A DNA stretch of 64,000 nt from NCBI RefSeq assembly GCF_963921235.1, contig NC_086108.1:75952001-76016000 (forward strand). Reading direction: 5' to 3'. Shown in pieces: positions 3,306 through 46,906 of the stretch (its first letter is position 1; every line of letters begins with the position of its first letter). Source of the stretch: Mobula hypostoma. Its lineage: Eukaryota. The translations under genes were made by a program, and so were the position numbers. Below the pieces are notes generated by a model. The model searched no databases, was not told the DNA's origin, and saw nothing but the letters and a program-made list of their open reading frames with translations.

Positions 3306-3464
3306 CTTTTCTGGCTGGTGTACTTAAAACAAGATTTTGTAGCAGGGAAAAGTCATCATCTGAGCTAATGTCTGCCAAGCTGAGAGTGCTACTCAGGTAG
3401 GAGTCAGAATCTTTAAGTGGCGCAGTCTTTGGTTTCTTTTTCATTTGCTGCCGTCTTCTTGCAT
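3306..3464 (-). CDS. CCDC163: CCDC163-like exon ([12 protein letters not shown]...[16 protein letters not shown]...TPARK)
   Basis: Acceptor tcatttcag|, donor AAG|gtaaag; phase 1 to 1; basic patch followed by a Ser/Asp-rich stretch. Confidence 0.75.
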
Positions 3465-6400
3465 CTGAAATGACATAACAAATGAAAGTCTATTTATGAA
3501 CATCTAAGATGTCTCTATGTGTAAAGTCAAGATGATGCTGCAGTGGATTTGGTGAGGGTGGGGTTAGGATATCCCCATTTTAAACATTTTCTGAGCCTAT
3601 ATTCTATTCAGCATCCAGTCTTGCAAAGTAACCCATTGTGAATTTTTGCACTTGTACATACTATTGATTATGCTTCCAAGGGAAAACTACAAGTTTAATT
3701 TTTTGCTCTGAATTCTTAAGCTCCATACTAGATACTTCATGTATTATAACATACAATTATTTTATATATTATAAACTTTACATTGTGGCATCTGGCAATT
3801 GGATGAGATTTTGTTTTAATCAGCCTCATTGAAAATAAATGATAGCTGCTCTTATTCTGACTATTTGAACTCTTTCTAGATGGTGTTTGGTTCTTTTCAT
3901 TCTTATATTGGTTCACTTTTCATGCAGGATGAGTCATCAGTATATGGTAGCATTTGGCAACCTTGCCTACTGTGAGCACATCTAAACTCGTAACCAAACT
4001 ATAACACATCTGCCGCAAGGTTCACTGAATTGTAATCAGAAAGTCATATCCAGGACCCAAGTGGAGTACACCCTGCAAACAGCAACGCCACACCAGTTGA
4101 GGAACAAACAACTTTTTTTGCTCGGTTTGACAGGGACACCAAAGAACCAGTGATGAAGGCCTTGACACTGAGGAGGACACAGCGCTGATACAGAGCACAA
4201 GAGTTGAGACGTACTCTCCACAATATCAAAACATGAAGAACAGCTGGACCAGACGGCATACCCAGGGGGGTTCTCAGGCACTGCACTGACCAGCAGGCAG
4301 AGGGTTTTAATGAAATCTATAACCCCTCTCTGTCCCTTGCTATGGTCCATGCATGCTTCAAAACATCAACTGTCATACCAATTCCAAAGTAGTCAGCGGT
4401 AACATGCCTTAACAGCAGACCAGTTGCACTCACCCCCATAGCTGTCAACTGTTTGGAGAGACTGGTTATGTCCCACATTAAGAACACATGTCTTACAATA
4501 AGAACGCATCCCTGCTACTCTGGACCAGCACCAGTTTGCCTACAGGGCAAACAGATCAACTGAGGATGCCATTGCTAACACTCTCCACATTGTACTGTAA
4601 CACCTAGAGCACAAGGCTACCAATGCCAAAATGCTTTTTATTGATAACAGTTTTGCCTTCAGCACCGTACTCCCAACAAGCTGACCACAGAACTACCCAA
4701 TCTGGGACTTAATGCATCAATTTGCAACCAGATTCTGGACTTTCTTACAAATCGCAGCCAGGCAGCAGACTTGGCAAGTATACTGTTGCAGGTATGTGCA
4801 CTGAGCCCACTCATTTACACCCTTTTCATGCATTACTGCACCCCTGCCTATGCCAGCAACTCCATCATTAAATCTGCAGACCACAGTGACTGGATTAATT
4901 AAAAATAACAACAAAGCAACATAAAGGGAGGAGGTGCAGAAACTGTCTGAGGTGTAATAACCATAACCTTTCCCTCAATATAAAAAAAAGAAAGAAATGA
5001 TTATTGACTTCGGGAAATCAAGGTATTAACAAGCTCCACTACTCATAAATGCTGAAATAGTGGAAAGGGTCTCCAGTTTTACGTTCTTGGGAGTGAACAT
5101 CACAGAGGAGCTCTCGTGGACCACCAACACCTCCTTGATAGTATGGAAGGCTCAGCAGCAGCACCTATATTATCTTAGGAGTTTAAAGAGAGCAAATCGG
5201 CCCCAAAAGCTGCTGGTAAACCTTTATTGATGTGTAATTGAGAACGTACTGACCTACTGTATGACAGTATGGTACATTAGCTGCAACAAGATTGACCAAA
5301 AAGCCCTTTAACAAGTAATCAAGACTGCACAAAACATCAGTGGGACACAACTACCACATATGGAAACCACCTACAACTCACGCTGTTTATGCTGGGCTTG
5401 CAACATCGTGATAGACTCAATTTCCACCATCCGGCCGGAGATACAGAAACATCTCTACAGGGACATCCAGATTGAAAACAGCTTTTTCCACAAGGCTGTC
5501 ACGCAACTGAACAATGCAACCCTCTCACCCTAGTCCACGGGCACTGTGGACAATCTCTAAATGCGATTCGTGGGCATGTGCAATATAAGGGTTTAAATGC
5601 AGCAGCTACTTTTTAAAAATCTCAGCTTTAATTCTTGATGCTATTTTCTATTTAATGATTGTATTTTATAACATGGGCATGTGCAATATACGAATGGGGC
5701 AGCTACCGTTACTTTCAATTATAAAGTTGTTTTTAATTGACTTACAACTTAGATGTCTCTAAATAACTCAGACATTATTTTAAATTTAGCCAATAGCTCA
5801 AATCTGAAATAAAGAAAAATAAAAGTGCTGTAAATGTGCATCAGGTTGGGCCCAGCTCATAAACCCAACATTTTAATGCTGTCTTGCTGTAGTTGCTGAC
5901 TCACCTGACTATTTCTAACATGTCCTAATATTGTTTTATATATTAAATTTAAACATGTCATTACAAGTACATTACTTCACTACAATTAAAAAAAGGCTTT
6001 ATGCATGAATAGAGATAACAAAATAAATGAAGAGTAAGTGAAGAAAACCAAATGCATAGACAAACTCAGGTGTGCATGATCATATAGAAATGGAAGAATT
6101 AAGAGAAAAGTGTGGAAAAGCAACTGAGGCAAAGAGAGACTTAAAAGTTATTTCAGAACATAAATGCAAACACTAGAGGTACCAAATGAAGTTAAGATTA
6201 AATTAGAACCATTAAAGGACAGGGCAGATGGGAGATGGAAGAGAAGAATATTATTACACTTTACAATTTACCAGTGGCATAACATAAATGATGAGGAGTA
6301 CAGTAAAAATAGAAGGGGACTTGCTAATCAAGCATCAGAACTTCACATGCACATTAGAAAGAAATTAGACGTGAGCCAGTCAAGCACAATGTACATACAT

Positions 6401-9400
6401 GTAGAATTTGTTTGAAAATACTGAGGCCGAGGACTGGCAGATAACACAAGAATGATATTTGAGAAGGGAGAAAAGAATGTGTCAGAGGAATTATAGACCC
6501 ATCAGTTTAACACTGGACTCCTTATAAGCAGAAGACTTCTCGGAGATTTTAAAAGAATTTTACTTGACCAGCCTTACTGATTTTTATTAAAAGAATTAAA
6601 CAGGGTAGACAACAGTAATAAAGTTGGCCAATATCTCAATATAAATAGCCCTCAATAAAATAATATATCACATTGAAAGTAATGTCAGTATATAAGCATC
6701 AAAATAGGTTACTAGCTGACTATGGCAGAATGCTAAGCATGGTCATAAAAGGCAGCTGTTAAGTGAAGAAGGTGGCTGCTGGCATTTCATAAGGGTTTAA
6801 ATGCCGGGCTGGATTGTAAAGGTCAGTGCTGGGCCATTGCTGTTGTTCAATTCCAAATATCAATTGACAATTTCAAAATTTATCAATGATACCAAATTTG
6901 GGAGTGAGAGAGGAAGGTATAACATACTACAAATTTATACACACCTGGTCTTAAAGGTGTACTGGTCCAGTTGTCAGCTAGCTGAATATTTTTCAGCTGT
7001 TCCTTCAAACTACCAACAGTGGATCTAAAAAAAATTTCAACTCAAACCATTAGTAATTAAATTATATAAAACATATAGGTGCAGTGGAACACTGAGCAAT
7101 AAATATAGCAAATTTAGAGTGACAATTTATTATAGATAGTTTAGAATTATTCCCTTCATAGATCCCTTTACAAATATAGGAAATTAGGAAAAGGAAGCAG
7201 TGACTAAAATTAAATTTTGTAATTTCATAACACCCTTCTAGGCTCCTGAAGTCATTTTGATCATATCTGACACAGCAAGATTGTGGTTGTTTTAATTACT
7301 TTGGGGGCAGCACTATAAATGTAGAGGGTAGTACCACAACCAGAAAAGTCTTCAAATGCTACATCAATGTATACATTCTAAGACTGGATGTTCACCTGCT
7401 TAATGATAATCCCAGTGAGAGATTGTGAAGAAGTCCATACTGACACGCAGTGACTATGGACATCATTCTACAGTGAATTGATAGGTAACAAGTCACAAAA
7501 TACCTGGGTTAAACTGCTGCCAAAGCAACATATTAAACGGGGCTAACATTACATTAACTTGTATACACTGGAATTTAGAAGGTTGAGAGGGGACCTGATT
7601 GAAACATATAAGATTATTAAGGGATTGGACATGCTAGAGGCAGGAAACATGTTCCCGATGTTGGGGGAGTCCAGAACCAGAGGCCACAGTTTAAGAATAA
7701 GGGGTAGACCATTTAGAACGGAGTTGAGGAAAAACTTTTTCACCCAGAGAGTTGTGCATCTGTGGAATGCTCTGTCTCAGAAGGCAGTGAAGGCCAATTC
7801 TCTGGATTCTTTCAAGAAAGAGTTAGATAGAGCTCTTAAAGATAGCGGAGTCAAGGGATATGGGGAGAAGGCAGGAACGGGGTACTGATAGTGGATGATC
7901 AGCCGTGATCACAGTGAATGGCGGTACTGGCTCAAGGGCCGAATGGCCTACTCCTGCACCTATTGTCTATTACCAAATTTTCCACATTAAATGTCCTTAC
8001 CATCATGATTGACCATGAATTCAAGTGAATTAGCTTTATTAATGTAATAGGTCACAATGGGTATTTTGCAACAGGTTACTCATTTCCCACGTCAAAACCA
8101 TCTTAACTATACATCATGTCAGGAATGCTTCTGTTTACTAATATAGATACAACTACAAGAGTGCACAAGAACAATATCCAGGAAAATTGTGTTAAACAGC
8201 TCACCTACTAGCTTAAGTATCTGGCCCTTCCAAAAAATGGCAAATTTGCCATTTTTGTTGCTGCATCATTTTATATGAAACAAAATGCAGCAGTTTACTG
8301 ATGCTTCCACAACCTAGAGGGAACATGGGCAGGAAATGTATATGCAGATTGTTGATCTCTGCTTCATATTATCCTGACGCAAACATACAAACCCTCCTTT
8401 CATTTTTCACTATTTCTCAACAGCAACAAAGAATGGATCTCCCATGAACTAATTTTAAAAAATCATGAATTAATGTTAAAAAAATCATAAATTAATGACA
8501 AAGTTTCATCTTGCACTGGTTGAACCACATCTTGAGTACTGTGTCGAGTTCTGATCACATTGAAAATTGCTGAGAAGACCCGCTAAGCTGAATGCAAGGG
8601 AAATTAATCATCCAAGTAATGGCTACATGACATTATTTCCAAGCCACAATCACAATTCTCAGATGATGGATTCAAACTAGGGCTTTGAATAGGAGAATGC
8701 AAGGAGAAAATAATGTTTAACAGAGTAAAAGGGGCTGCTGCCCTTTATGTCAATCCTAGCTTGTTGTTATCTGTAATTTTAACATCTATCTGTTGATATT
8801 AATTTCTTTTATAAATACTGCAGTACTTAAAACCCTTCAGCAGCTATGATTTTAAAAAAATAAACATAAATAAGGATAGATCAATTATTTTAAGCCATTC
8901 ACCTGATATTTGTAAGCTCCTGTCCTGAACATTCCCGCTCATGAGCTAACAATTGATACTTATTCATTAGTTCTCTCACCATCTATCAAGAAGGAACAAA
9001 GTGTCAATAAGTAAATATACAAGTAACTTCTTAACAATATTAGGCTGACACAAAGTGCTGTATAACACAAGACTTCAGAGAATGTAGACTGTAATGTAGG
9101 GAAGTCCCACAAAGAGATAGGATGGCTAAATAATTTTTCATTGAAATTAATGGGAATTAATATTGCCGAGCACTTCAGAAATTTCCTGTTCTCTCTGAAC
9201 TAAGCTGCAGTAAGATTTTATTCAAAGTTGATTTTGATATGTACCCTTCTAACTCTGGTTTAATGACTCAGTGGAGCACAGTCAGTACTGAGAAGATAAT
9301 TTAGTTCGTGCATGCCTTGCATCTAAACCATTGAAGCAAGAGGTGGTACAACTTAATAGAATAGTTGCCATTGCAATCAAAATTAAAAGGTTACATGATC

Positions 9401-12400: not shown

Positions 12401-15400
12401 GTTTAGTCAAGACATGAAAGGATTCAGGGAGAAGGCAGGAAACTGGTGCTAAGAGGGAAGATGGATCAGCCATGATGAAATGGCAGAGCAGTCTCGATGG
12501 GCCAAATGGCCTAATTTTGCTACTATATCTTATGGTCATATGGTCTTGTATGTATGACCATATGACCATAAGATGACAATAACCTTGAACTTGGTCAAAT
12601 TATCAGTTTTCATTGTCATTGCTATGGGAAGCTGACAGTAACTAAACATTTTTGATTTATACATTTAAACATCACAAAAATGCAGACTGTGCTCCAATGT
12701 TGAAGTCAACAGGAATTCAAATGAGGGTAAACACTTGGCTAATTCTAATTAATGGGATAACATATTTGTAGATTCTGAAAATATATCTGTAAAGAAATCT
12801 GATTTTTTTTGAGTGTTCTCAACAGGAAATGAGTTGAAGATAGGTAAATTAGATAACGTTATAGAGGTGGAAGTGACAGTCTCAGAAATGGTGAAGATGA
12901 AGTCAGAACCTCTTGAGTCAAACAAAGTCAAATGCAGCTGCTAAATACTGGAACAAGTGATGGTTTTGGCCTTCCGAGTGTTTAGAGATCACAAAAGAAA
13001 TTAATGTTATTTCAAATATCCTTGTTAATACAGTAATTTACCTTACTATTTTTATCTTGTGACTGCTTAAGTTCCTTTGTATCAGAAATCTGTTTCGCCA
13101 GTTCATCCTCTTGCCTCCCTGAAACAATAGTGCAAGTGCAGTAGATACTGAAAGTAACTTTCAGCATTGAAATAAAATGGAAAATGCTGGAAGATGCAAA
13201 TAAAATGCTAAGATCACAAATGAAACAGTGTGTATTTGTCAGATACATTGGCTATGACCAGAGGAAAAATGGCTGTAGTCACTTAGCACTTTAGTGCAAA
13301 TGTTAGATGCTTCAAAAATCATACTTACAAAATTTAGCAAAAATGCTGAAAAGAAAACTGCCAATATTTACAAAAAGATACCAGAAAACACAATAATTGC
13401 TCCGTATTTATTCTTGTCCAGTGTGAACTCCTGGCAGCCCTAATCTCCTACTGAAGGTAAACAGCTCCATTTTTTTTCTTTACGCACTAAGACATACCAT
13501 CTTTAATTACCAGTGAAGTTAACTTCAGACTACACATGAATTAGAATATAATGCACTCCACAATGTAGTTACAATCATATTACAAAATAAACAGTAAAAT
13601 ATAAAATTAAAAGTAAAATATAAAATTAAGTACAGCATACAAACAACATATACAGATTTACACTAGGTATGGTGGGAAAAGCATCATAAAGTTAACCTGA
13701 GTGCATTAACTCGGTTTAGGACACATTATGAGAATATAGCAAGGAAGATATTGAAGTGCACACACTCAGCACGACAGCAGAATGACAAGCCAACGTTTGT
13801 ATTTGTGTGAATGCGCGTGTGTAAGTTCATTTACCGAGTACTCTTTGTCACATTAGCACCATCCTCTTCTACGGCGATGATGCTTAGCAGCTGAAACAGA
13901 CAGTCTGCAGTAACATTTCCTTTCCCTGCTTTATGGTGGACACAGAATTTGAAGGTTTGGAGCTGCAGGTACCACCTTATCACTCTAGCATTATGATCCT
14001 TCACTTCTGAGCATCCCTCCCACTCAGAATTTCAAAAGTTTCCTTTCCTCTGTCTCAATCTCAATAGACGACCCCTTAGTAGTGACCTTTGAAGAATCAT
14101 TAGATTCTTGAATGGTTCAGGAGGACTGAACAATTGTAAATGTCTCTCTGCTTTTTAAGGGAGGAAGGCAAAAGACAGTAAATTGTAGACCAGTTAGCAT
14201 GACTTCAGTAGTTGCCACGGTGTTGGAGTCCATTATTAATTGAATTGAATGATCCTTATTGTCATTATACATACGTAAAATGAAACACTGTTTGGCTTCC
14301 TCTCAGGCAATTAAATAAAGCAGTAGATAAAAACAAGACAGTAATAGAAAAACAGTATTAAATAGATAAGTAGCAGAAAATAAGTTGCAGCAGCACCAGA
14401 ATATCACAGTAATGCACAAAGTGTCATTAGTGCAAGTATTTGAGTCCTTGTGTGTTCATGTGTGCGCTCACAGTTTTGGTCATTGTTCTGTGGGAGTGGT
14501 GTGATGGGAGGCCACAGCTCTGGGATAGAAGCTGTTCTTCAGTCTATTTGTTCTGGCTTTTAGTGTCCTGAACCTTTTGCTGGACGGCAGCGGGTCAAAC
14601 AGGGAGTGGCCGGGTTGTGTGGTGTCTCTGGTTATGCTGATTGCTTTCCTCCTGAGTCTGCTGTAATAGATGGTGTCCAGTCCTGGGAGCTCCATCCTGA
14701 CAATTCACTGGGCTGCCTTCACCAGGCGATGCAGGTCTTGTTGCTCAGCAGCTGTGCAGTTGGCATATCTCACTGTGGCGCTGTTGGTCAGGATGGTTTC
14801 AATTGTGCTTCTGTAGAAGTTAAGCAACAGCTTTTGTGGGAGTTTGGCCTGTTTCAGCTTTCTGAGGAAGAAGAGTCTTCGTTGTGCCTTTTTTTTTTAC
14901 AAGCAGCGAGGTGTTGGTGGTCCATGTCAGCTGTTTTGACAACATAACTCCAAGGAACTTTTAAGTTTTCCGCACTTTCCACTATCTCTCCATGTATATG
15001 GGGGGGACCAGGTTATTGTCCTTACACCACTCCATCAGATGATCCACCTCAAGCTTGTAGGCTGTTTCATCCTCGTCTGAGATCAGGCTAACCACAGTGG
15101 TATTGTCTGCAAATTTAATTATGGAGTTGGAGGTGTAGATGGGGGGGGGGGCAGTCATATGTGAAGAGTGTGTAGAGCATACGGCTCAGCACACAGCCCT
15201 GCGGGGTGCCTATTTTTAAGATGAGGATGGCGGAGGTGTGCATACCAATTCTGACCTGCTGTGGTTGGTCTGTGAGAAAGTCCATGACCCATGAGCACAG
15301 GGAGGAACCAAGGCCAAGAGTGTTCAGTTTGCTGACCAGTTTATGGGGGATGACTGTATTAAATGCAGAACTGAAGTCCACAAATAACATCCTCACATAA

Positions 15401-18400: not shown

Positions 18401-21400
18401 GGAGGGAAAATAAGTCAGCCATGATTGAATGGCAGAGCAGATTTGATTGACTGAGTGACCTAATTCTTCTCCTACATCTTATCGTCTTACATAAACGTAA
18501 CAAGATATCATTGTTTCAAGAAGAACATAAGAAATAGAAGCAAAGTAAGCCTACTCTGTTCTTCATCAAAATCATGTTTTATTTTTGAGCTCAATACCAT
18601 TTTTGTGTAGTAATCCCATATAACCTGATTCCTTAATCTATCAATCTCTATTTTCACTGAACTCAATAACAGTCTCCAAAGCCCATTGGGGGTAGATTAG
18701 TCCAAATATTCACTATCAATTGAGTGAAGAAATTTCTCTCTCAGTCCTGAGCAACCAAATTTTTTATCCTAAGATTGTGACTTTTCATTTAAAATTCCTC
18801 AGCCAGAACAAACTCCAATCTGCATCCAGCCTGTCAAATTCTGAAAGAACTTTGCAGGTCCTTTGAGGGTAATAAAATATCCTCCCAGTCTTGTAAACAC
18901 TGGAGAATACAGGCCCAGTCTGATTTTTTTTTCATACCATAAACTTACCATGCCTGGAAGCAGGCTAGTGAATTTATTTAATTGATTCCTCAATATCTTG
19001 ATATGGAAAGCTATTTCATACAGTTTCCACAAATTCATCCTCAACCTCATTATTGCTGTCTTGATTAGTTTGTTCTGCATGTAAACTAAAGTCTCTGACA
19101 ATGATTTTATTACCCCTATTTAAGCACCTCTAACTTTCCAAATAATGCAGTGCTCAATAATACAAATACTATTTAGTGGCCTATCAACACTGTAACTCCT
19201 ACCAATACTTACTGCCCTTTGCTCTTTCACAGCTCAATTCCATACAAATGTGCTGATCTTTCTTCCCCATCATCCATCCCCTTTTATTAATAACATTATA
19301 TGACTTTTTCATTTTTGGAAAATAGGTGATATAGTGTTATTAATAAAATTACAAATATCTTTGAACATGCAACTCACAGCTTTGGTCATATGGCAATTAA
19401 ATCATATTCATTTGGGATGGGTAAAAAATATCGGTCTTGCCACATTCACCGAATTCTAAAATCTCTTATTGGTGCTGTTATAATTTGCCACATACTTATA
19501 CACTTGACATTTTTTTCCTTTCTTTCAATCCATTGTCTGTTGGCTTTTGTTTCTGGTCTATTTATTTCACTTATTACTGTTCTAATTTCCAATTTCTGTC
19601 TCTTCGCTTCCTGAATTATTCTCAAAGTTCCCATCACACTGTCAATCTAACAAACTCTTCCCAGAAGAACTAGCAAATTCCTCCCTAGAGAATATTGGCT
19701 CCATAAGACATGAGCAGAATAGGCCATTTGGCCCAGCAAGCCTGCTCTGCCATCCAACCATAACCGTTTTCTTCCATCTCTTTCTCTTGCCTTCTCTGCG
19801 TAACGCTTAACCACTACCTATCACAAACCTATCAATCTGTGCTTTAAATATACCATAACCTGGCCTCTACAGTTCTCTGTGGCAATGAGTTCCATATATT
19901 TACCACCCTTTAACATAGAACATAGAACATAGAATAGTACAGCACAGTACAGGCCCTTTGGCCCACAATGTTGTGCCGACCCTCAAACCCTGCCTCCCAT
20001 ATAAGCCCCCACCTTAGATTCCTCCATATACCTGTCTAGTAGTCTCTTAAACCTCACTAGTGTATCTGCCTCCACCACTGAATCAGGCAGTGCATTCTAT
20101 GCACCAACCACTCTCTGAGTAAAAAACCTTCCTCTAATATCCCCCTTGAACTTCCCACCCCTTACCTTAAAGCCATGTCCTCTTGTATTGAGCAGTGGTG
20201 CCCTGGGGAAGAGGCGCTGGCTATCCACTCTATCTATTCTGCTTATTATCTTCTACACCTCTATCATGTCTCCTCTCATCCTCCTTCTCTCCAAAGAGTA
20301 AAGCCTTTGCTGAAGAAATTCCTCACCTCAGTTTTACAGGGACATCGCTTTTTTGAGGCCTTGGATCCTAGATTCTCCTACTAATGGATACTTAATTTTA
20401 ACATCCACTCTATCCAGGTCTGGTTAATGGTCTGGTCTGGCTGTGGTGCAATGATTCGTGCAGGCTCTTCTTGCCCCAAAAATGGTCTGAATACCTTAGA
20501 AATCTAAATCCTTCTCTGCTGCACCGTATTTCCATCTACAGATTCATTTGCTCTACATTGCAATTTCAGTAACTGAAGGAACATGGAACTGAGAGTAAAT
20601 TGAGATCACTGGCTTAGAGTTTCCTCTTTTAACATCTTTCCCAGCTCCTAAAATGCTGCCTGCAGACCTTTTGTTTTTTCCTTCTGTTCCGCCTCTCCAT
20701 TCCACATGCTCTGTTGTTCAGCGACACCCCTGACCTTGGCACCAGACAGGCAATATCCCATCCCAGAGTCACATCTAAGGCTACTGAAACATCTCCCTTC
20801 ATTCGTAGCTAACTTCATTCACCAATACTTTGAACTGATTCTATGACTTATTTCAGACATTTTCAAAGCCCCTTTATAACTTACATGCCCAGTATTATTT
20901 TTATTTCCAGTTTGTCTTTTCAACATTGGTTGTTTATCATTCTTTGTTTATGTATCGTTTTTCGTACAATTCTATTTCATTTCTTTTATCCTGTAAATGC
21001 TTGCAAGAAAACGAATCTCAAGATATATGGTAACACATATGTACTTTGATAATAAATTTACTTGGAACTTTCTTCCTCCTTCACCATCACTATTGCCTCT
21101 CATTCTTCTTCCCCTCTTGAAGAGTTGAGTCACTCCTTATGGCAGAATTCCAGCTTTGACTGGATTTCCTGAAGGAACTACCAGTCCCCAGCAGTATTCA
21201 GAAAGGGAAATTTGTCAGTGGGCAATAGTTTCTCAGGGAACCACTGCACTACCTGCCTGCTTTTCCTGGTCGATCTGACAGTCATCCATTCCCTCTCCGT
21301 CCACACATACTTCAGCTGCATTGTGACCACCTAACTCTGCCATCACAATACATCCATGATTCCAACCAAAGCTCCATCTTTGAAATGCAGACTCAAACTG

Positions 21401-24400
21401 CTGCAACCTACTGGTAGTACCCTGCTTTCCAAATGTACAAATGGGTTAGCTTTCACTGACTGTGCACAAGGCCACTGAAATACTCGCCAGCATCCTCATC
21501 TCTCAGGAGATTGCAGGCCTGGCTGAAATATGAAGTGCTGTTACAGAGCTTACTTTATTAATTGACAGTTCAAAAGAGACTCAGCACCAACAGGCAAGAG
21601 TGGGAGTGATTTAGAATTAAAGTGATAGGATCCATGTTTGCAGAATGAATAGAAGTGCTCATTAAAGCAGTTACCCAATTTGCATTGGCTATCACCTACA
21701 GAATAAAGGGAAGTTTGCAACATACCAAACTGAAAATGGTAGAAGGAAATTGCTATTTCATTTGTAGGAGTGTCTGAAGCTCTGGTGGGGCGGGGGGGAG
21801 GGGGTCATATGATCGAAGAGGCTGCATCATCTGCAATTGCATAGCTATATGCTGTGGGCAGAGAAGTGGGCATAAGTGGTGAAGAAATGAGGCTCCTATA
21901 GTTCACTAACAACCAATGTTAAGTAAGTGTATTGGCTTCTACTTCCTGCTTTCAATAAAAAAAACTCCACTCTTCCTTCAGTTTCTCAATGTCTGTTACA
22001 TCTGACAATGCCACTTTCTATGTTGTACCAATACTTCCGATATTTCTCCCTTTTTCACTTAATCAAGAATTCTCCTCCACCAGAAATGAGAGGACCCTTG
22101 AACTTCAAATTATTTCTGCATGTATCACAAACCTTCTCTGATCAAGTGTTCTCTTGCCCTCCCCAAAAATTAAAACAATATTTATATTTATTGTCGGCTA
22201 ATCTATTTATGTTCTGGTAAAAACATAAAGAATTGAAAATCCACTGATTGCACTCGAATACTTACATAGCTTGTGTTTCATGTCATCAATCTCCTTTCTA
22301 AGTGATTCATGTTCTTCACAGAGGTCTTTTCTTCTGTTAATAAAATATTTTATTAAAACATATTCAGTGGATTGTTCATCAATCATTAACACTTTTTCAG
22401 GAGAATGTCAAGCATTATCAGTAATTTATTACTGATGGACTAGATTCCAGTTCCCAACAAAAACAGTTTAAAGATGGATGCTCAGAGTTCTACATCAGCA
22501 TTTTGCAAGTCGAAACAAAAAGAAACATCATTGAATTTCTTAAATGACAGAACAAAGACTGCTGCTTTCAGTTTAATCAATATTTGCTTAGTAAATTCAA
22601 GGATTACTGGTAGAAAAGTTTATAAAAATTATTCATGCTCATAACCTCCATCACAATCCATAAAACCATGCACTTAAGTCAAAATTTTATTACAGGAGCT
22701 TAAGCTACACAAACTATGAAAACAATGAGGATTATTTTAACCATTTCTACCTTTCATGGACTTCTTGCATCAGGCTGGAAAAAGTTAGTTTTCTATAACC
22801 AAGCCTGCTATCCATATGACGTAGTTGCTCTCGCAAACTGTACATTTCATTTGAAATCTCTTTGCGCCAATCCTCCATCTTTCTCTCCAACTGGAAATCT
22901 AAACTCTTCTCTTCAGATTGCTCTTGTAATCGCCGAATTTCCTCTGCAAAACAAATGGCAATTTGAATTCAAAATACGTTTTTATCAACAAAATGTATTA
23001 AAATTTTAATTATTACCTTCTAATGATCGAATACGCTGCCTTTGCTGCTCCTTTTCTGTTTCAACTCTCAGTAAAGCTTGGTGTAAAGATTCAATGGTCT
23101 AAAGATACCAAAAAATATTGATCAAAATATTGAAAAAATAGTGCACATTCGATAAGTAAGCAGTCAATTATCTTCAATCTATTCCTTTGAATAGCAGGAA
23201 GCAAAAAGTAACCACATGTATAGTATACACTTAAAAAGGAAACAAGCCATCCCTATTAAGATGACAATTTAACAGGTATAATAATAAAAAAACGATTTTA
23301 CAAATAGGTTCACAGAAAAACTGGCAGCAGAATGTTGCAAAAACAGAAACAAATACACCAGATATCTGGCCACTACACACTTTCAACAAAACCACAAATG
23401 CATGACGAAAATGGACATCCTACAGGAGATCATACTGTTCGTAGCAGGTTTTTGGAATAACATGAAGTAAGCATGTAGACCAGGAGTTTACTGGCAAATT
23501 GTCCATGTTCTACTGTGTCTCATCATTATATATAGAAGAATCACAACAAAAAACAGGATTTGCCTGTGGATTTTTAACTTTGCACTGTGTTTGAACCGGA
23601 TATATCAAGAGTATGCCAAATTCTACACTATCATTACTCTCCCAAAATTTAAAAAAACAGGAGGGCTTTTCGAAAAACCAAGCAAACAGGTGTGTACAGA
23701 GACACAAATTTATGGAAAGTACACAGTTCTCTTACTTTTAGCGCACTTACTTTTCCTTGGAATTGTAGCTGCCTCGAGATGCTCATTAATTCTTCTTTAG
23801 GCAATTTCTGACTATACACATCTGAACAAGATATGTGCTCCACAGAAACCGAGAGAGGTTCATTGAATCGAATGTTTTTCATGTCAACCATGTCACGTGA
23901 TCCAACTAAGAGAGAGCAAAAACGTTGAAAGTAGAAATAAACCTCTGTAGCCAACACACTTGTAATAAAACAAAATACTTATTACTCAGGTACAATATGT
24001 TCTCTCAAATAACATCTTCCTTTGAGGCAAGTTTCCTACCAGAGTTAGAAAATAATCCACATTTGTGGCTTTCTTTGCAAGCTATCATCAACAATTTCTC
24101 ACAGAAACTTCCAAGCATCAATCATCAGTGGCACAATAGAGAAAACAAAAGGATGATTATTACATTTTACTGTCACACAGGTTCTGTGGAAGCTGCAGCA
24201 AGGCAAATAGGAGGAGGAGAAGATGACGGCGCGATGCAGCGTGCGCGACCACTCTGGTGGTGATGTCTGTTATTTGTCAGGTAGGGTACCGTGCACAATT
24301 CTGATTTGATGGAGACAGATGTGAGAATATGGAGGAACAACTGGAGAAACTTCTGAAATGCCCGCTTCGCTGCCGCTGCTACTGTGTGGTCCAGAATCTC

Positions 24401-27400
24401 CGGAGGGAAGGCCCCGAATCCTTGGCTTTGCTTGTTTCGGTGGCCAGGGCGAGGTCGAAGGCGCTTGGCAGAGGATGGTGCTCGGGAAGCTGTATCAGAG
24501 GGGCTGGTCGGAGGCTTAAAGTTTTTGGACGGACGGATGGACTCAGTGTCGGCTGTGGTCGGGTGCTTCCAATGCATCGGCAGCTGTCGGTGCCTGGAGG
24601 TTTATGGCAGGGAGTTTCACCCTTTGCCACCTGCTATCAGGGACTCGGGAGTCGATCAGGACTTGGAGACTTTTTTTTACAGTGCCCATGGTCTGCTGTT
24701 CATCAAATTATGGTATTGTTTTGCACTGCTGTAACTACATGTTATAATTATGTGGTTCTGTCAGTGTTAGTCTTTGGTTTGTCCTGTTTTTCTGTGGTAT
24801 CACTCTGGAGGAACATTGTATCATTTCTTAATGCATGTATGCATTTCTAAATGACAATAAACAAGGACTGAGTGTTCTCATAATCTAATATTAAAATAAT
24901 GTGTTGACAGAATAGAGTACAGACAGTCCACAATCTCAAGCTGAACCAAACCTTTGAAAGCTGGATTTTACTTCATAGAGCCTTTTCTGATTGCAGAAGT
25001 TCAGTAAAACATGAGTCAAGATGATAAGTTGAGAGGGACAGTGTGCAAACAAAGTGCAGTCAACCAGACTAACATGTCCCTTGAAAGCTTAACTCTCCTT
25101 TGTACAGCCTTTCTGTTCAAGCTTTGGAGCCAAGATTACCAATTACCAGACAAGATAAAGATGCAGACAAAGGATTCTAGGGCAGCACCTACTATGGAAC
25201 AACTATTTTACTAATTTTCAAGTATTTCAAGTATTTTAACACATCAGTTCAATTGGCCATTAATATCTGAAATATTATGTTTGGTACTTGAATATGTAAA
25301 TGATGTGATTCAGAAATGCACAGTTTCTATTAAATCAATTTCTATATCCAACTAGTTAATTTCTGTATAAAAATGGCATTTCTTTGTTCAAACCAGAACA
25401 GTTTGATGACAAAAGACAGGCTATTCTCATCATAAATAAAGTGTGATTGATTGAGACATGAGAACAAGTTGTCAGAGTACCGCTAAATGGCAATGACAGT
25501 TCAAATGATCAGATTCAGCAGGCGTTATCAGGTTACTTCTGTTGAGAAATGCATGAAAACAATTATACTACTTAATTTAGTTTTAATTTAAATAAACAGT
25601 ACCACCTACCTTTTGCATAATACCCTGTGGTGTTCAATCTTTGCTGCAAACAAAAAAAAAGTCACTCCATTAATATCACAACTATACCAAAATATTCAAC
25701 AGTATTACTATTGGGAATTACAGATGACAAGTTTTATGTGATCTTTTGAAGAGAAATTATAGCTCCAGTCTGATTAGAATCATGTTTATTATCACCTGCA
25801 AGTGACATAAAACCAAGCTCTGCAAGGAATCTGCAGAAGACAAGCAACTGCAAAGTCTCTTCCACAGTCAGATTAAAGAATCAATACTGAGGAACACAAT
25901 TCCTGGCTTAAAGAACTTAAGCTTAAATATTTCGTTCAACATAAAAACAAAATCCAGAGAGGATGGAAGTACAAAATTAGGAGAGATCAGTAATTGCTTT
26001 ATTTTAATTTTTTTTTGTGTGGGCACGTGGCCAAGTGGTTAACGCATTGGACTAGCTACCTGAAGGTCGCTAGTTCGAGCCCCAGCCAAGGGAACGTGTT
26101 GTGTCCTTGAGCAAGGCACTTAATCACACATTGCTCTGTGACGACACCAGTGCCAAGCTGTATGGGTCCTAATGCCCTTCCCTCGGACAACATTGGTGTT
26201 GTGGAGAGGGGAGACTTGCAGCATGGGCAACCGCTGGTCTTCCATACAGCCTTGCCCAGGCCCGCGCCCTGGAGAGTGAAGACTTTCCAGGTGCAGATCC
26301 ATGGTCTCACAAGACAAACGGATGCCTCAGTTAATTACTTTTAATCAAATCTGAAAGACTCTTCACTTATAAAAATAAACATTCAATGCAAGAGGGTCTA
26401 ATTGGTTGTTATGTTTTTATCATTCCATTAGAAATGGTTCCAAGATACTGCTCATCGCTAGTGGAGTTCGTGACTGTTAGATGCAGACCATTTTATTTAC
26501 AACGGGAATTCACCACTGTCCTTATAGTCAGTGTGTACATTCCCCCCCCCCCAGCGCTAATGCTAAGGAGGCACTCTGTGAACTGTATGGAGCTATTAGC
26601 AAACTGCAGAACGCACACCCTGATGGACTGTTTATTGTCGCCGGAGATTTTAACCACATGAACCTTAAGTCAGTGCTCCCCAAATTCCATCAATATGTGG
26701 ACTTTGCATCGAGAGGGGAGAACACGTTGGCCCTTGTATACACAAACATTCCCGACGCATACTGGGCGGAGCCCCGCCCCCACCTCAGTTACTCAGACCA
26801 CATCTCTGTTATGCTAATCCCAACATACAGACCGCTCGTCAGGCGCTCCAGACCAGTTCAGAAGCAGGTGAAAACCTGGCCAGCAGGAGCCATCTCTGCT
26901 CTTCAAGACTGCTTTGAGCACACTGACTGGCACATGTTCAGGGAGGCTGCAACCGATGGCGACTCTACCAACTTAGAGGAGTACACAGCCTCAGTGACTA
27001 GCTACATCAGCAAGTGCATTGATGACGTCACTGTGGCCAAGACCATCACTACATGCGCTAACCAGAAGCCATATACTTTGAATAAAGTATATTTTGAAAT
27101 TAAAAAACAGAAGCCATGGATGACCACAGAGGCACGTGCGCTGCTGAGGACCCGTGAGACCGCCTTCAGAGCAGGCAACAAGGCAGCCCTAACAACAGCG
27201 AGTGCCAAACTGTCCGGGGCCATCAGAGAGGCAAAGCTTGCACATGCCCAGCGAATCCACAGCTACTTCCAGGACAGCGACGACACATGGCACATGTGAA
27301 AGGGCATTCAGGACATCACCAACTACGAGACACCACCACCTGCATGTGCTGGTGATGCCTCCTTCCCAGATTCGTTGAATAACTTCTACGCTCATTTTGA

Positions 27401-30400
27401 GGCGGAAAATGATATGGCGGCGAGGAAGACCACCCCTCCTCCAAATGACCAGGAGCTGTGTCTTACCGTGGCCGATGTGAGGAGAACCCTGTGCAGGGTC
27501 AACCCACGGAAGGCTGCTGGACCAGACAATATTCCTGGCAGAGTGCTTAGAGGATGTGCAGACCAGCTAGCAGAGATTCTCACTGACATCTTCAACATCT
27601 CCCTGAGCAGCGCCGTCGTTCCTACTTGCTTCAAGGCCGCCATCGTCCCCATGCCGAAGAAGTCTTTAGTGTCCTGCCTCAACGACTACCATCCCATCGC
27701 ACTCACATCCATCATCATGAAGTGTTTCAAAAGGCTTGTCATGAGGCACATCAAGGCCCTGCTGCCCCCCTCACTGGACCCCCTGCAGTTCGTGTACCGT
27801 CCCAACCGTTCAACAGACGATGCCATTGCCATCACCCTCCAACTGGCCCTAACCCACCTGGACAAAAAAGACACGTACGTTCGAATGCTGTTCATAGACT
27901 TCAGTTCAGCATTCAACTCAGAAATTGATTGGAAAGCTGAGCCTACTGGGCCTGAACACCTCCCTCTGCAACTGGATCCTAGACTTCCTGACTGGGAGAC
28001 CTCAGTCAGTCCGGATTGGAAGCAGCATCTCCAACACCATCACACTGAGCACGGGGGCCCCCCAGGGCTGTGTGCTCAGTCCACTGCTGTTCACTCTGCT
28101 GACCCACAACTGTGCCGCAATACACAGCTTGAATCACATCATCAAGTTCGCCAATGACATGACTGTGGTGGGGCTCATCAGCAAGAACGATGAGTCAGCA
28201 TACAGAGAGGAGGTGCAGCAGCTAAGGGACTGGTGCAGAGCCAACAACCTGTCTGTGAATGTGAACAAAACAAAAGAGATGGTTGTTGATTTCAGGAGGA
28301 CACGAAACAACCACTCTCTGCTGAAGATCGATGACTCCTCCGTAGAGATCGTTAAGAGCACCAAATTTCTTGGTGCTCACCTGGCAGAGAATCTCACCTG
28401 GTCCCTCAACACCAGCTCCATAGCAAAGAAAGCCCAGCAGCGTCTCTACTTTCTGAAGGCTGAGAAAAGTCCATCTCCCACCCCCCAATCCTCACCACAT
28501 TCTACAAAGGTTGTATTGCGAGCATCCTGAGCAGCTGCATCACTGCCTGGTTCGGAAATTGCACCATCTCGGATTGCAAGACCCTGCAATGGATAGTGAG
28601 GTCAGCTGAGAAGATCATCGGGGTCTCTCTTCCCGCCATTACAGATATTTACACCACATGCTGCATCCGTAAAGCAAACAGCATTATGAAGGACCCCACG
28701 CACCCCTCATACAAACTCTTCTCCCTCCTGTCATCTGGCAAAAGGCACCGAAGTATTCGGTCTCTCACAACCAGACTATGAAACAGTTTCTACCTGCAAG
28801 CCATCAGACGCCTCAATACCCAGAGCCTGGACTGACACCAACCTACTGTCCTCTAAAGCAGGGGTCCCCAACCTTTTTTGCACTGCGGACCGGTTTCATA
28901 TTGACAATATTCTTGCGGACTGGCTGATCTGGGGGGGGGGGGGGAGGAGGGGAGCATGGGTAGGGTTGCCAATGGACAAGAGTAGCAGTCAAATACGTTG
29001 GGTTTACCCCGAGAAAGACTACAATGACCATGAAGCCTTGCGCGGGCACCAGTGCGCATGCGTGCACGTGCCGATTATTTCTGTACAAATCGTTTTTGCC
29101 AATTCTGTTCGGGGCGGGGGGGGGGGGTGGTGTTAATCAAGGACCGGAATATCGGTGATAAGTGGCTAATACACTCAATTTCATTTCTAAAAGGGTTTAT
29201 CTAACGAATTTAATATTAAACACACACCGCATATTTTCCTCGCATGAATATAGCGATAAGTCAATTATCAGGGGAGGACAGGGAAGCTTGAAGTAAGTGT
29301 TGAATGAACTTCCAGTAGAAGTGGCAGAAGCAGGTTCGATATTATCATTTAAAGTTAAATTGGATAGGTATATGGACAGGAAAGGAATGGAGGGTTGTGG
29401 GCTGAGTGCAGGTCGGTGGGACTAAGTGAGAGTAGCGTTCGGCACGGACTAGAGGGGCCGAGATGGCCTGTTTCCGTGCTGCAATTGTTATATGGTTATA
29501 TAAGTCAATAGCATCATAACATTTTAAGTAACGTTTGGATATTAACACAGCGCATATTTTCCCCGTATGAACATATAAAATCATTGCAACGCACCAATAT
29601 CACTGAATCAGTGACTGGGCTCAAGACGGTCCTATCGAGGAGTGATGGGAGACAGTGATACTCTAACGGGGTTCCTTATGTCCAATCTATTCCGCAATTT
29701 AGTTTTTGTTACATTCATTGCAGAGATATGTTGGAAATGGAAGCAACTTTTTCGGTGCTTCCGTGGCTATCTCAGGATATTGAGCCTTGACTTTGATCCA
29801 GAATGCCGGCAGAGATGCTATGTCAAACATACTTTTCAGCCCGCCGTCACTTGCAAGCTCGAGGAGTTGATCTCCTTCCCGTGCTGACATGGATGACGCA
29901 CGCGTAATGGCTCAACAGTGGGCGTGACAGGGAATGAGGAAAGGTGCAGCTGACTCATATCGCCAAATCATATCGTTTCCTCGTGGCCCGGTAGCGCATG
30001 CTCTGCGGCCCGGTACCGGTCCACAGCCCGGTGGTTGGGGACCGCTGCTCTAATGTGCATATTGTCTTGTTTATTATTTATTGTAATGCCTGCACTGTTT
30101 TGTGCACTTTATGCAGTCCTGGGTAGGTCTGTAGTCTAGTGTAGTTTTGTGTTGTTTTACGTAGTTCAGTGTAGTTTTTGTATTGTTCATGTAGCACCAT
30201 GGTCCTGAAAAACGTTGTCTCGTTTTTACTGTGTACTGTACCAGCAGTTATGGTCAAAATGACAATAAAAGGTGATTTGGCTTGACTTGAAAAGTACACA
30301 TGAATGAAAAGCCTTCACTTTTTCCCCAAGGTATTGAGTGGGAAGCTGACAGGCAAATGCCACAAGTTCATGCCCTTTTATGTTTCAATCCTCAGTCACC

Positions 30401-39400: not shown

Positions 39401-39645
39401 TCCCCTTCTATTTCATCTATACCTCCAGGTAAATTGGAGAATTGAGTTCTATGTCCAAATAAAACCACATTCCATGCATTGAAGTGTCAAAAATGCAAAA
39501 CATTTTGATTTACATTTACTATTAAAAGCTGAAACAAAAAATTAGAAGTATTGTTCAATACAGAAGCATTACAACTTACCTTTATTTTTGCAACATTGCA
39601 GTCAGTGTCATTTAGTAGGGAATTTAGCTGAGTGTCCCAGTTCAT
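3306..39645 (-). CDS. CCDC163: CCDC163-like coiled-coil protein, 3'-incomplete; complement(join(3306..3464,6945..7024,8903..8982,13042..13118,22266..22333,22751..22943,23017..23098,23751..23905,25610..25643,39580..39645))
   Basis: Ten GT-AG exons with compatible phases give 994 nt with no stop. The N-terminus [25 protein letters not shown] and the segment [19 protein letters not shown] resemble human CCDC163 as recalled. Head-to-head position with MMACHC matches the human locus. Confidence 0.85.
4000..5530 (+). mobile_element. Rex1/Babar-like LINE, degenerate RT and 3' end
   Basis: [23 protein letters not shown] and KAQQ motifs; related to the element at 26.4-28.8 kb. Confidence 0.8.
6000..6900 (+). 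mobile_element. Highly decayed CR1 fragment
   Basis: Remnants of NYRPISL and ISKFINDTK. Confidence 0.45.
6945..7024 (-). CDS. CCDC163: CCDC163-like exon ([26 protein letters not shown])
   Basis: Acceptor tttttttag|, donor CAG|gtgtgt; phase 2 to 1. Confidence 0.78.
7555..7972 (+). mobile_element. CR1 LINE 3' end, 5'-truncated
   Basis: [13 protein letters not shown]...TRGHSLRI...[11 protein letters not shown]2 C-terminus plus 3' UTR. Confidence 0.9.
8903..8982 (-). CDS. CCDC163: CCDC163-like exon ([26 protein letters not shown])
   Basis: Acceptor ccttcttgatag|, donor CAG|gtgaat; phase 0 to 2. Confidence 0.78.
9680..11645 (-). mobile_element. CR1 LINE, 5'-truncated, young family
   Basis: [53 protein letters not shown]-type tail at ~9681. 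Confidence 0.93.
11935..12545 (+). mobile_element. CR1 LINE 3' fragment
   Basis: [14 protein letters not shown] and [15 protein letters not shown]-type tail. Confidence 0.85.
13042..13118 (-). CDS. CCDC163: CCDC163-like exon ([26 protein letters not shown])
   Basis: Acceptor ttgtttcag|, donor |gtaaat; phase 1 to 0. Confidence 0.85.
13853..14010 (-). mobile_element. Ty3/Gypsy RNase H C-terminal fragment
   Basis: Translates as [35 protein letters not shown], matching the Gypsy RNase H end motif. Confidence 0.7.
14241..15397 (-). mobile_element. Rex1/Babar-like LINE, 5'-truncated
   Basis: [36 protein letters not shown]; (TTCAA)n tail. Confidence 0.88.
15868..18345 (-). mobile_element. CR1 LINE, degenerate
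   Basis: RT, C-terminal and 3' UTR remnants on the minus strand. Confidence 0.85.
18525..18980 (-). mobile_element. Decayed CR1 3' end
   Basis: [14 protein letters not shown] remnant; gaacataagaaatag tail. Confidence 0.6.
19700..20420 (-). mobile_element. CR1 3' end containing a nested younger CR1 3' end (~19910-20305)
   Basis: An (aacatag)3 tail at ~19911 interrupts an older copy that resumes at ~20306. Confidence 0.75.
22266..22333 (-). CDS. CCDC163: CCDC163-like exon ([22 protein letters not shown])
   Basis: Acceptor ttattaacag|, donor |gtaagt; phase 2 to 1. Confidence 0.88.
22751..22943 (-). CDS. CCDC163: CCDC163-like exon (EIRRLQEQ...SSLMQEVHE)
   Basis: Acceptor ttttgcag|, donor |gtagaa; 193 nt, phase 1 to 2. 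Confidence 0.88.
23017..23098 (-). CDS. CCDC163: CCDC163-like exon ([27 protein letters not shown])
   Basis: Acceptor ctttag|, donor |gtaat; heptad-like sequence; phase 0 to 1. Confidence 0.88.
23751..23905 (-). CDS. CCDC163: CCDC163-like exon (GSRDMVDMK...[21 protein letters not shown])
   Basis: Acceptor ctctctcttag|, donor |gtaagt; phase 1 to 0. Confidence 0.85.
24210..24890 (+). mobile_element. Non-autonomous retroelement (GC-rich head, LINE-like 3' tail)
   Basis: GC/CpG-rich block starting agaagatgacggcg and ending in a T-rich tail, aatgacaataaa and aatctaat; no credible protein. Confidence 0.55.
25610..25643 (-). CDS. CCDC163: CCDC163-like 34-nt exon ([11 protein letters not shown])
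   Basis: Acceptor ttttgtttgcag|, donor AAG|gtaggt; phase 0 to 1 fits its neighbours. Confidence 0.8.
26021..26327 (+). mobile_element. tRNA-derived SINE
   Basis: Pol III A box TGGCCAAGTGG and B box GTTCGAGCC followed by a non-tRNA body. Confidence 0.8.
28859..30047 (-). mobile_element. hAT (Charlie/Buster-like) non-autonomous DNA transposon
   Basis: TIRs caggggtccccaacc / ggttggggaccgctg; 8-bp TSD ctctaaag/ctctaatg; hAT C-terminal remnant [13 protein letters not shown]...LLPFPTYLC. Confidence 0.9.
29266..29499 (+). mobile_element. CR1 extreme 3' fragment nested in the hAT element
   Basis: [10 protein letters not shown] plus CR1 3' UTR, flanked by a 10-bp direct repeat ataagtcaat (29256-29265, 29500-29509). 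Confidence 0.75.
32118..33800 (+). mobile_element. Tigger/pogo-like non-autonomous DNA transposon
   Basis: TA|CAGG...CCTG|TA termini; remnants [12 protein letters not shown] and [11 protein letters not shown]...[10 protein letters not shown]. Confidence 0.85.
32955..33286. repeat. Palindromic hAT-like MITE inside the Tigger element
   Basis: Long imperfect inverted arms (aataaacaagctaattaattaggtgc / gcacctaattaattagcttgtttatt) around a short loop near 33110; end gggaccactg resembles a Charlie-type TIR. Confidence 0.7.
33967..35529 (+). mobile_element. Academ-like DNA transposon, internally deleted
   Basis: ~130-bp TIRs starting TAGTCC; 3-bp TSD tag (33964-33966, 35530-35532); transposase remnants [35 protein letters not shown]-terminal Cys8 cluster. 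Confidence 0.75.
35949..39111 (-). mobile_element. Tc1-like transposon with long IR/DR-type TIRs, decayed, interrupted by CR1
   Basis: TA|cagttgcaagaaaa...tcttgcaactg|[31 protein letters not shown]. Confidence 0.9.
36166..37848 (-). mobile_element. CR1 LINE nested in Tc1; same young family as 9680-11645
   Basis: 254-aa RT ORF with [29 protein letters not shown]. Confidence 0.93.
39580..39645 (-). CDS. CCDC163: CCDC163-like first coding exon ([22 protein letters not shown])
   Basis: Acceptor ctactacag| 4 nt before ATG (exon starts 39649); donor AAG|gtaagt. Confidence 0.85.
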
Positions 39646-46839: not shown

Positions 46840-46900
46840 CACCACAGATTCACCGAGTTTAAACCTGCGTCGCTCAAATTGACATCGCCGCACGCAACGA
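46840..46900 (-). other. CCDC163: Probable non-coding first exon of the CCDC163-like gene (5' end undefined)
   Basis: Strong minus-strand donor GTG|gtgagt at 46840/46839 in the CpG-rich region; the first coding exon has an acceptor, so an upstream exon is required. Confidence 0.55.
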
Positions 46901-46906
46901 AGGGTG

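What the first reader, a model, noticed from the sequence alone, without database searches (positions are those of the whole stretch)
3306..39645. Long-form CCDC163 ortholog that appears to link CCDC163 with CCDC159
Seen: ten exons give at least 331 uninterrupted codons of coiled-coil protein. From memory, human CCDC163 (long labelled a pseudogene, CCDC163P) is much shorter and matches only the N-terminus and the [14 protein letters not shown] segment. The additional exons resemble human CCDC159 as recalled: [31 protein letters not shown] vs DSQKLLRCELESLKSQLQAQTK-AFEFLNHSV, and [22 protein letters not shown] vs AQEIRDSKKFLWEELELVREEV. Inference: this is close to the ancestral full-length gene, CCDC163 and CCDC159 are paralogs (possibly ohnologs on the 1p/19p paralogon that also holds PRDX1/PRDX2), and mammals lost central exons.
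Basis: partly seen in the sequence, partly recalled or inferred. Interest (0 to 1): 0.72.

Follow-up and report, generated by a model that had tools for sequence, protein, structure and literature searches.

The report
Full-length CCDC163, sister gene of CCDC159
This is an intact, spliced CCDC163 gene of a ray-like fish that shares its protein core and intron pattern with CCDC159, a mouse sperm-neck protein; the two likely arose in an early vertebrate genome duplication, and most mammals keep the long form, so the shortened human gene is likely a late primate loss.

Summary
Ten minus-strand exons give 331 codons, and an eleventh just outside the window completes a 376-aa frame, 93.6% identical to an annotated Hypanus protein. 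Four junctions are joined in three likely-RNA assemblies. The gene lies head-to-head with MMACHC, so it is the CCDC163 ortholog.

The same genome carries a CCDC159-clade gene on another contig. Nine of ten intron phases match, introns 3-8 align exactly, and five exons have identical lengths. The two contigs share JUN, MAST, PRDX, TMEM205 and EPOR/MPL-type pairs, so a whole-genome-duplication origin (likely the second round) fits best. Single pre-duplication homologs exist in amphioxus, hemichordate, echinoderms, brachiopod, sea anemone and a choanoflagellate. The N-terminal helix is kept by CCDC163 and lost by CCDC159.

'Mammals lost central exons' is wrong: 118 of 120 listed mammalian hits, lemurs and tarsier included, keep them. 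No monkey or ape was among them, so the loss is likely simian.

The predicted product is a parallel coiled-coil dimer; a centriole or sperm-neck scaffold role is inferred from mouse CCDC159. The gene is already annotated in relatives and the family link is probably in databases (recalled), so interest is modest.

The parts
39580..39645 (-). CCDC163 coding exon 1 (residues 1-22; conserved N-terminal helix)
   Evidence: motif kept in 23 of 25 invertebrate and 12 of 12 mammalian CCDC163 proteins, 0 of 24 CCDC159
25610..25643 (-). exon 2 (34 nt; same length in the CCDC159 paralog)
   Evidence: joint to exon 3 in 3 of 4 runs
23751..23905 (-). exon 3 (predicted disordered linker, start of coiled coil)
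23017..23098 (-). exon 4 (82 nt; same length and phases in the paralog)
22751..22943 (-). exon 5 (193 nt; central coiled coil)
   Evidence: 0 differences in the three likely-RNA contigs
22266..22333 (-). exon 6 (68 nt; same length in the paralog)
13042..13118 (-). exon 7 (77 nt; same length in the paralog)
8903..8982 (-). exon 8 (80 nt)
6945..7024 (-). exon 9 (80 nt; same length in the paralog; end of coiled coil)
3306..3464 (-). exon 10 (basic, then Ser/Asp-rich, predicted disordered tail); exon 11 with the stop lies about 7.4 kb further on, beyond the window start
46977..59192 (+). MMACHC, head-to-head neighbour that fixes orthology (three Pfam-matched exons from 50210; first exon at 46977-47049 read from the sequence, inferred)
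46500..47000 (.). CpG-richer stretch with two consensus minus-strand splice donors (46839, 46798): candidate shared promoter and non-coding first exon of CCDC163 (inferred, not tested with reads)
   Evidence: acceptor 4 nt before the ATG; 44 extra 5' bases in contig X1

Best explanation
This is the intact 11-exon CCDC163 gene, which shares ancestry with CCDC159, likely as the two surviving copies from the second vertebrate whole-genome duplication, and its protein is predicted to form a parallel coiled-coil dimer that likely acts as a scaffold at the centriole or sperm neck. Shown: exon structure, splicing of exons 2-6, the MMACHC neighbour, homology and shared introns with the CCDC159-clade gene, and the long form in most mammalian orders. 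Inferred: the duplication round, the dimer, the cellular role (borrowed from mouse CCDC159), and loss of the central exons in simian primates. CCDC163 kept the ancestral N-terminal helix; CCDC159 lost it and diverged.
For: Frame and splicing. Orthology: MMACHC adjacent and divergent, as in human (PMC9020039, passages). Homology: HHalign of non-mammalian CCDC163 vs CCDC159, probability 99.9, E 2.9e-32, 210 columns; mammalian CCDC163 vs CCDC159, 98.9, E 1.1e-17. 24 of 24 CCDC159 score 56-135 bits on the CCDC163 profile; the same sequences reversed score at most 3. Only 194 of 1.84 billion proteins reach E 0.001, so generic coiled coils do not match. Introns: 9 of 10 phases equal, introns 3-8 in identical columns, five exons of identical length; the phase string alone has chance about 4e-5 with textbook frequencies. 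Tree: vertebrate genes one clade (100/100), CCDC159 clade including the ray paralog (99/99); shark/ray-only and mammal-only duplications rejected (AU p 0.0025; p 0.0003). Paralogon: 5 of 5 families tested have members on both C50 and C81; GIPC and DNAJB genes flank the paralog. Lamb 2021 (PMC8040251, passages and supplement rows) puts JUN/JUNB, MAST2/MAST1, GIPC2/GIPC1, DNAJB4/DNAJB1, RAB3B/RAB3D and PLPPR5/PLPPR2 in columns C/D, which split at the second round. Structure: helices 3-30, 70-159, 167-272. Homodimer score 0.34 vs best control 0.00; runs share at least 82% of contacts, pLDDT at least 62; the mark was reached by 21 of 30 solved microbial homodimers and 0 of 23 monomers, and by 7 of 16 animal homodimers. 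Function: CCDC159 at the mouse spermatid neck, with headless sperm in mutant mice (PMC12901780 and PMC11423811, passages).
Against: In the best tree CCDC163 is not a clade: CCDC159 nests inside it. Monophyly is not rejected (AU p 0.30) but is not shown. The AU groups were named after the tree was seen. No lamprey or hagfish sequence was identified, so first vs second round rests on synteny. The five paralogon families were chosen because they are known members, so 5 of 5 is not an unbiased test, and the identity of each ray copy rests on Pfam plus position. The intact ray CCDC159 is not next to TMEM205 as in human; only an exon-7 relic is. Intron 10 differs, and introns 1, 2 and 9 do not fall in shared columns. 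Profiles of the C-terminal tail found nothing outside their own group (0 of 25, 0 of 12, 0 of 24). The dimer score is barely over the 0.32 mark, and coiled coils pair readily in such models. Both models used the Hypanus ortholog, not the window protein. I found no functional study of CCDC163 (listings), and the tissue of the RNA runs is unknown.
Confidence: 0.72

Rival explanations
1. The two genes are paralogs from an early small-scale duplication before jawed vertebrates split, one copy having later moved onto the 19p-type chromosome; the paralogon location is coincidence.
For: The best tree nests CCDC159 within CCDC163. Local gene order is not shared: MMACHC beside one, GIPC/DNAJB or TMEM205 beside the other. 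The ray CCDC159 locus has been rearranged.
Against: The two copies lie on the sister chromosomes C and D of one known paralogon. With 17 paralogons of four columns each, landing on the sister is unlikely by chance (inference).
Confidence: 0.12
2. Same history, but CCDC163 is a general cytoplasmic coiled-coil adaptor (for example for motors or kinases) rather than a centriole or sperm-neck scaffold.
For: No CCDC163 functional data were found. Language-model neighbours outside the family (Chibby/SPERT, AZI2, HAP1, CDR2; 0.77-0.80) are adaptors, though below the 0.9 bar and so leads only. CCDC159 lacks the N-terminal helix, so the roles may differ.
Against: The only characterised family member is at the spermatid neck, and a paper lists it among centrosome proteins. 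The named homologs come from flagellated or ciliated lineages, including a choanoflagellate (only 7 of 10 non-vertebrate look-ups carried an organism name).
Confidence: 0.3
3. The window gene is CCDC159 itself, as the NCBI names 'CCDC159-like' or 'CCDC159' on several of its orthologs suggest.
For: Automatic names on orthologs from Heterodontus, Heptranchias, Narcine, Rhinophrynus, Ascaphus and others.
Against: The MMACHC neighbour; a separate gene in the same genome inside the CCDC159 clade at 99/99; the N-terminal motif shared with mammalian CCDC163 and absent from 24 of 24 CCDC159.
Confidence: 0.02

Closest known systems
CCDC163 (human CCDC163/CCDC163P, 1p34.1; RefSeq 'transmembrane protein CCDC163' of mammals)
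   Same: Head-to-head with MMACHC (PMC9020039); N-terminal motif; central coiled-coil exons kept in 118 of 120 listed mammalian hits; 12 of 15 isoform break-points in the core fall within 2 residues of the ray introns.
   Different: Mammalian proteins are diverged (about 20-35% identity per core exon to the ray protein), and their tails do not score on the non-mammalian tail profile. The human product is short (recalled, not obtained). No transmembrane segment is apparent in the ray model (not separately tested). PRDX1-like is 1.4 Mb away in the ray, not adjacent.
CCDC159 (19p13.2; mouse spermatid-neck protein, Ge et al. 2024, seen only as cited in other papers)
   Same: About 210-column coiled-coil core; nine intron phases, six intron positions and five exon lengths in the ray paralog; 7 of 12 isoform break-points near the same introns in other species.
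   Different: Lacks the conserved N-terminal helix (0 of 24); different tail and tenth intron; separate clade and chromosome.
Unnamed single-clade invertebrate and choanoflagellate homologs (Branchiostoma P0090, Ptychodera P0097, Acanthaster, Diadema, Lingula, Nematostella, Stephanoeca P0187)
   Same: N-terminal helix plus core; HHalign probability 100, E 1.1e-42 to the CCDC163 profile over 330 columns; one amphioxus isoform break at intron 5.
   Different: Outside the vertebrate clade; genomic introns not examined; no function known.
InterPro/PANTHER family joining CCDC159 and CCDC163 (recalled as IPR039284 / PTHR34533; from no call)
   Same: If the recall is right, the paralogy is already recorded at database level. 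The NCBI 'CCDC159-like' names on CCDC163 orthologs, including colugo P0361, agree with that.
   Different: Could not be checked. Pfam gave only weak generic coiled-coil matches and no family model; 0 papers hold those accessions.

Membership tests
CCDC163 ortholog | Divergent (head-to-head) neighbour of MMACHC | tested here: met
   PF16690 has 3 matches in the genome, all in this window on the + strand
CCDC163 ortholog | N-terminal motif shared with mammalian CCDC163 | tested here: met
   12 of 12 mammalian CCDC163 at 10 bits or more, median 37.9; reversed 0 of 12
CCDC163 ortholog | Forms one clade with mammalian CCDC163 | tested here: inconclusive
   Not a clade in the best tree; AU p 0.30
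CCDC163 ortholog | TESK2 and PRDX1 as next neighbours (human order) | tested here: not met
   PRDX1-like is 1.4 Mb away; no kinase exon among 100 candidate frames from about 90 kb left and 60 kb right (partial scan, weak)
CCDC159 ortholog | Member of the CCDC159 clade and on the 19p-type chromosome | tested here: not met
   Another gene (C81:4.44-4.47 Mb) holds that place, 99/99
CCDC159/CCDC163 family | Significant profile match beyond coiled-coil bias | tested here: met
   (reversed controls)
CCDC159/CCDC163 family | Shared intron positions and phases | tested here: met
   9 of 10 phases, 6 of 10 exact columns, 5 exon lengths
Ohnolog pair (vertebrate genome duplication) | Duplication after invertebrate chordates, before the jawed-vertebrate split | tested here: met
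   Vertebrate clade 100/100; both groups hold cartilaginous and bony vertebrates; later duplications rejected
Ohnolog pair (vertebrate genome duplication) | Copies on sister chromosomes of one paralogon | tested here: met
   Lamb 2021 row 8, columns C/D; test families hand-picked
Ohnolog pair (vertebrate genome duplication) | Cyclostome orthologs fix first vs second round | not testable with these tools
Centriole / sperm head-tail coupling proteins | Localisation and loss-of-function phenotype | not testable with these tools
   Known for mouse CCDC159 only

The most novel reading that the evidence does not exclude
Human CCDC163 is a simian-specific ruin of an ancient centriole/flagellar coiled-coil protein, older than animals. 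It is still full-length in lemurs, tarsier and rodents, and its genome-duplication sister CCDC159 lost the ancestral N-terminal helix while specialising at the sperm neck. Monkeys, apes and humans would then have shed one of two partly redundant neck scaffolds, with the locus surviving beside the promoter it shares with MMACHC.
Probability: 0.35. Interest if true: 0.55.

Novelty: new member of a known kind. Interest (0 to 1): 0.33.

Why it matters
It gives an orphan human gene, often labelled a pseudogene and silenced together with MMACHC in epi-cblC disease, an ancestry and a testable function by way of CCDC159. It shows that automatic 'CCDC159' names on many shark, amphibian and turtle proteins belong to CCDC163. 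It also points to a datable gene reduction in simian primates that a mouse knockout can probe, because rodents keep the long form. The gene itself is ordinary and already annotated in related rays.

Tried and rejected
Pfam scan of 37 orthologs: only weak generic coiled-coil matches, no family. Foldseek against PDB: no match at E 0.001. ESM Atlas: only own-family clusters above 0.9, and the structure rows were all under TM 0.5. No run was on record as RNA; three guessed ones were used.

A third paralog in the genome was not found but is not excluded. The C81:7.216 Mb hit was considered as a second CCDC159 and rejected: only exon 7 with flanking intron is there. C-terminal tail sub-profiles did not carry across groups.

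Literature: CCDC159 48 papers and CCDC163 51 (25 of each listed). Both terms together: 1 paper, listing only, on another topic. CCDC159+PPP1CC: 0. CCDC163+testis and +pseudogene: listings with nothing evolutionary. Family accessions: 0. Supplements of four ohnolog papers had no CCDC159 or CCDC163, but this is weak: two held no gene tables, one had two files unsearched, Lamb's file was cut and lists only 3-4 member families, and the online ohnolog databases were not seen. Ge et al. 2024 is not held. Earlier scan findings: none.
Full report
OBSERVATION. The window lies at G000:C50:75952001-76016000 of a 3.5-Gb genome. It is inferred to be a ray because the protein is closest to Hypanus and Pristis. 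Mapping annotated orthologs onto the window gave ten minus-strand exons. With exact boundaries they total 994 nt, 331 codons plus one base, all introns GT-AG. An eleventh exon beyond the window start completes 376 aa, 93.6% identical to RefSeq Hypanus P0001. Laying four runs on 21000-28700 showed the four junctions from exon 2 to exon 6 at the predicted bases in three runs (RNA by the tool's guess; two studies). The fourth run covers the introns and shows no such joint. In run X1 exon 5 sits at bases 382-574 of a 1332-nt contig, which leaves room for all other exons plus about 44 and 157 untranslated bases.

IDENTITY. MMACHC (PF16690) has three matches in the genome, all in this window on the opposite strand. 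This is the human CCDC163-MMACHC arrangement (PMC9020039 and PMC12193327, passages). Orthologs of 300-486 aa occur in sharks, rays, chimaera, paddlefish, teleosts, amphibians and turtles (54 hits), several named 'CCDC159' or 'CCDC159-like' by NCBI. A profile of 37 of them found 194 proteins among 1.84 billion at E 0.001 (150 listed). Thirty look-ups named mammalian CCDC163, vertebrate CCDC159, and homologs in amphioxus, Ptychodera, Acanthaster, Diadema, Lingula, Nematostella and the choanoflagellate Stephanoeca.

PARALOGY. HHalign gave probability 99.9, E 2.9e-32 over 210 columns for non-mammalian CCDC163 vs CCDC159, and 98.9, E 1.1e-17 for mammalian CCDC163 vs CCDC159. The alignments were built from hits of the first profile, so I added independent tests. 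Reversed CCDC159 sequences score at most 3 bits against 56-135 forward (24 of 24). A Hypanus paralog (P0245) located a second gene at G000:C81:4.44-4.47 Mb. Its exons are 60, 34, 119, 82, 202, 68, 77, 74, 80, 59 and 15 nt, against 66, 34, 155, 82, 193, 68, 77, 80, 80, 159 and 137 for the window gene. Phases agree for introns 1-9, introns 3-8 share alignment columns, and intron 10 differs. Isoform break-points in other species agree in part: 21 of 29 within the core lie within 2 residues of these introns, about 15% being expected by chance (12 of 15 mammalian CCDC163, 7 of 12 CCDC159, 2 of 2 amphioxus). These rows are not independent, and 5 of 17 clusters gave none.

TIMING. In a 60-row, 209-column tree all vertebrate genes form one clade (100/100), and CCDC159 of ray, sturgeon, teleosts, amphibians, reptiles and mammals forms another (99/99). 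Against my reading, CCDC163 is paraphyletic in the best tree. Its monophyly is not rejected (AU p 0.30), while shark/ray-only and mammal-only duplications are (p 0.0025 and 0.0003; groups named after seeing the tree). C50 and C81 each carry JUN, MAST, peroxiredoxin, TMEM205 and EPOR/MPL-type genes (five families, hand-picked). The only ELOF1 match is on C81 (human 19p13.2 by recall), and GIPC and DNAJB genes flank the paralog. Lamb 2021 (PMC8040251; passages and supplement rows) assigns the human 1p and 19p members of JUN, MAST, GIPC, DNAJB, RAB3 and PLPPR to columns C and D of one paralogon, with topology ((A,B),(C,D)). A figure legend in PMC5237311 (passage) lists human CCDC159 after RAB3D and TMEM205 and before PLPPR2. 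A second-round origin is therefore the best inference; no cyclostome sequence was available.

WHICH COPY IS ANCESTRAL. The N-terminal 30-residue profile scores 10 bits or more in 23 of 25 invertebrate homologs and 12 of 12 mammalian CCDC163, but in 0 of 24 CCDC159. The invertebrate profile matches CCDC163 over 330 columns and CCDC159 over 199. The ray CCDC159 still has a first exon and a 34-nt second exon in the same phases, but the motif no longer scores. Conservation of the acidic tail was not shown statistically.

MAMMALS. A mammalian profile gave 168 hits, 120 listed. Of these, 118 cover both exons 4 and 5, the median length is 330 aa and 86 reach 300 aa. They include horse, sheep, bats, carnivores, elephant, armadillo, rat, Mus pahari, marsupials, lemurs, galago, loris, tarsier, colugo and tree shrew; platypus is. 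Ranking by score favours long forms, so this shows their breadth, not their frequency. No monkey or ape is among the 110 named hits, and the 10 unnamed ones are nearest to bats, rodents, horse and sheep, though a tamarin CCDC159 is in the database. The 48 unlisted hits and the human protein were not seen.

MECHANISM. AlphaFold2 of the Hypanus ortholog gives a short helix (3-30), a disordered linker, two long helices (70-159, 167-272) and a disordered Ser/Asp/Glu-rich tail; pTM is 0.27. A two-copy model scored 0.34 against best control 0.00, with in-register parallel contacts over residues 3-24 and 72-122. The runs share at least 82% of contacts and pLDDT is at least 62. The mark was reached by 21 of 30 microbial and 7 of 16 animal homodimers, and by 0 of 23 and 0 of 30 monomers. 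This supports a dimer but does not show one. The only functional lead is mouse CCDC159 at the spermatid neck, with headless sperm in mutant mice (PMC12901780, PMC11423811; passages; the primary paper was not held). I commit to a centriole or sperm-neck scaffold at about even odds. The history (ortholog, paralog, genome duplication) is much firmer than the function.

NOVELTY. The gene is annotated in related rays. I recall an InterPro/PANTHER family that joins CCDC159 and CCDC163, which no call could check. In the held library I found no paper on their relationship (supplements, with the limits given under Tried and rejected). The additions here are the intron evidence, the second-round placement, the pre-animal reach of the family, the CCDC159-specific loss of the N-terminal helix and the likely simian reduction. 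Verdict: real, well explained, modest interest.

Noticed in passing
G000:C81:7216171-7216756 (L040): Isolated copy of CCDC159 exon 7 with flanking intron (exon 92% identical, about 600 nt at 78%), between an ATG4-type gene and TMEM205 and opposite in strand to TMEM205. It may be a relic at the ancestral site; the intact gene sits 2.8 Mb away between GIPC and DNAJB genes.
   Followed up: partly
G000:C50:82264394-82264615 (L035) and C81:7235178-7235354 (L036): Two TMEM205-family genes, one on each sister contig: a possible retained ohnolog pair where humans have one gene (recalled).
   Followed up: no
window 46500-47050: MMACHC first exon, a CpG-richer stretch and two minus-strand consensus donors 140-180 bp from the MMACHC start. 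A compact shared promoter like the human one may be conserved in the ray, with a long first intron in CCDC163.
   Followed up: partly
G000:C50:76041374-76041640 (L045) and C50:74.53 Mb (L058): A HORMA-domain exon lies beyond MMACHC, and the PRDX1-like gene is 1.4 Mb away, so the antisense PRDX1-MMACHC adjacency behind human epi-cblC is not present in this ray.
   Followed up: no
proteins P0180, P0250-P0253, P0256; P0338; P0077, P0093: Database models that seem fused to or named after neighbours: teleost CCDC159 named 'transcription elongation factor 1 homolog', a loris CCDC163 named TESK2, and two fish CCDC163 carrying an unrelated N-terminal segment.
   Followed up: no
proteins P0363, P0366, P0369 and other hits near 270 aa: Many placental mammals have a shorter isoform of about 270 aa that leaves the long form after exon 7 and ends in a different tail; the human product may derive from it (inference from recall).
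   Followed up: no
window 53429-54469 and 60610-61332: Tc1/mariner-like transposase remnant in an MMACHC intron and a CR1/L2-like LINE frame of 240 aa; labels from my reading of the translations.
   Followed up: no
window 44136-44337: Near-perfect tandem duplication of a 104-bp unit within repeat-derived sequence.
   Followed up: no
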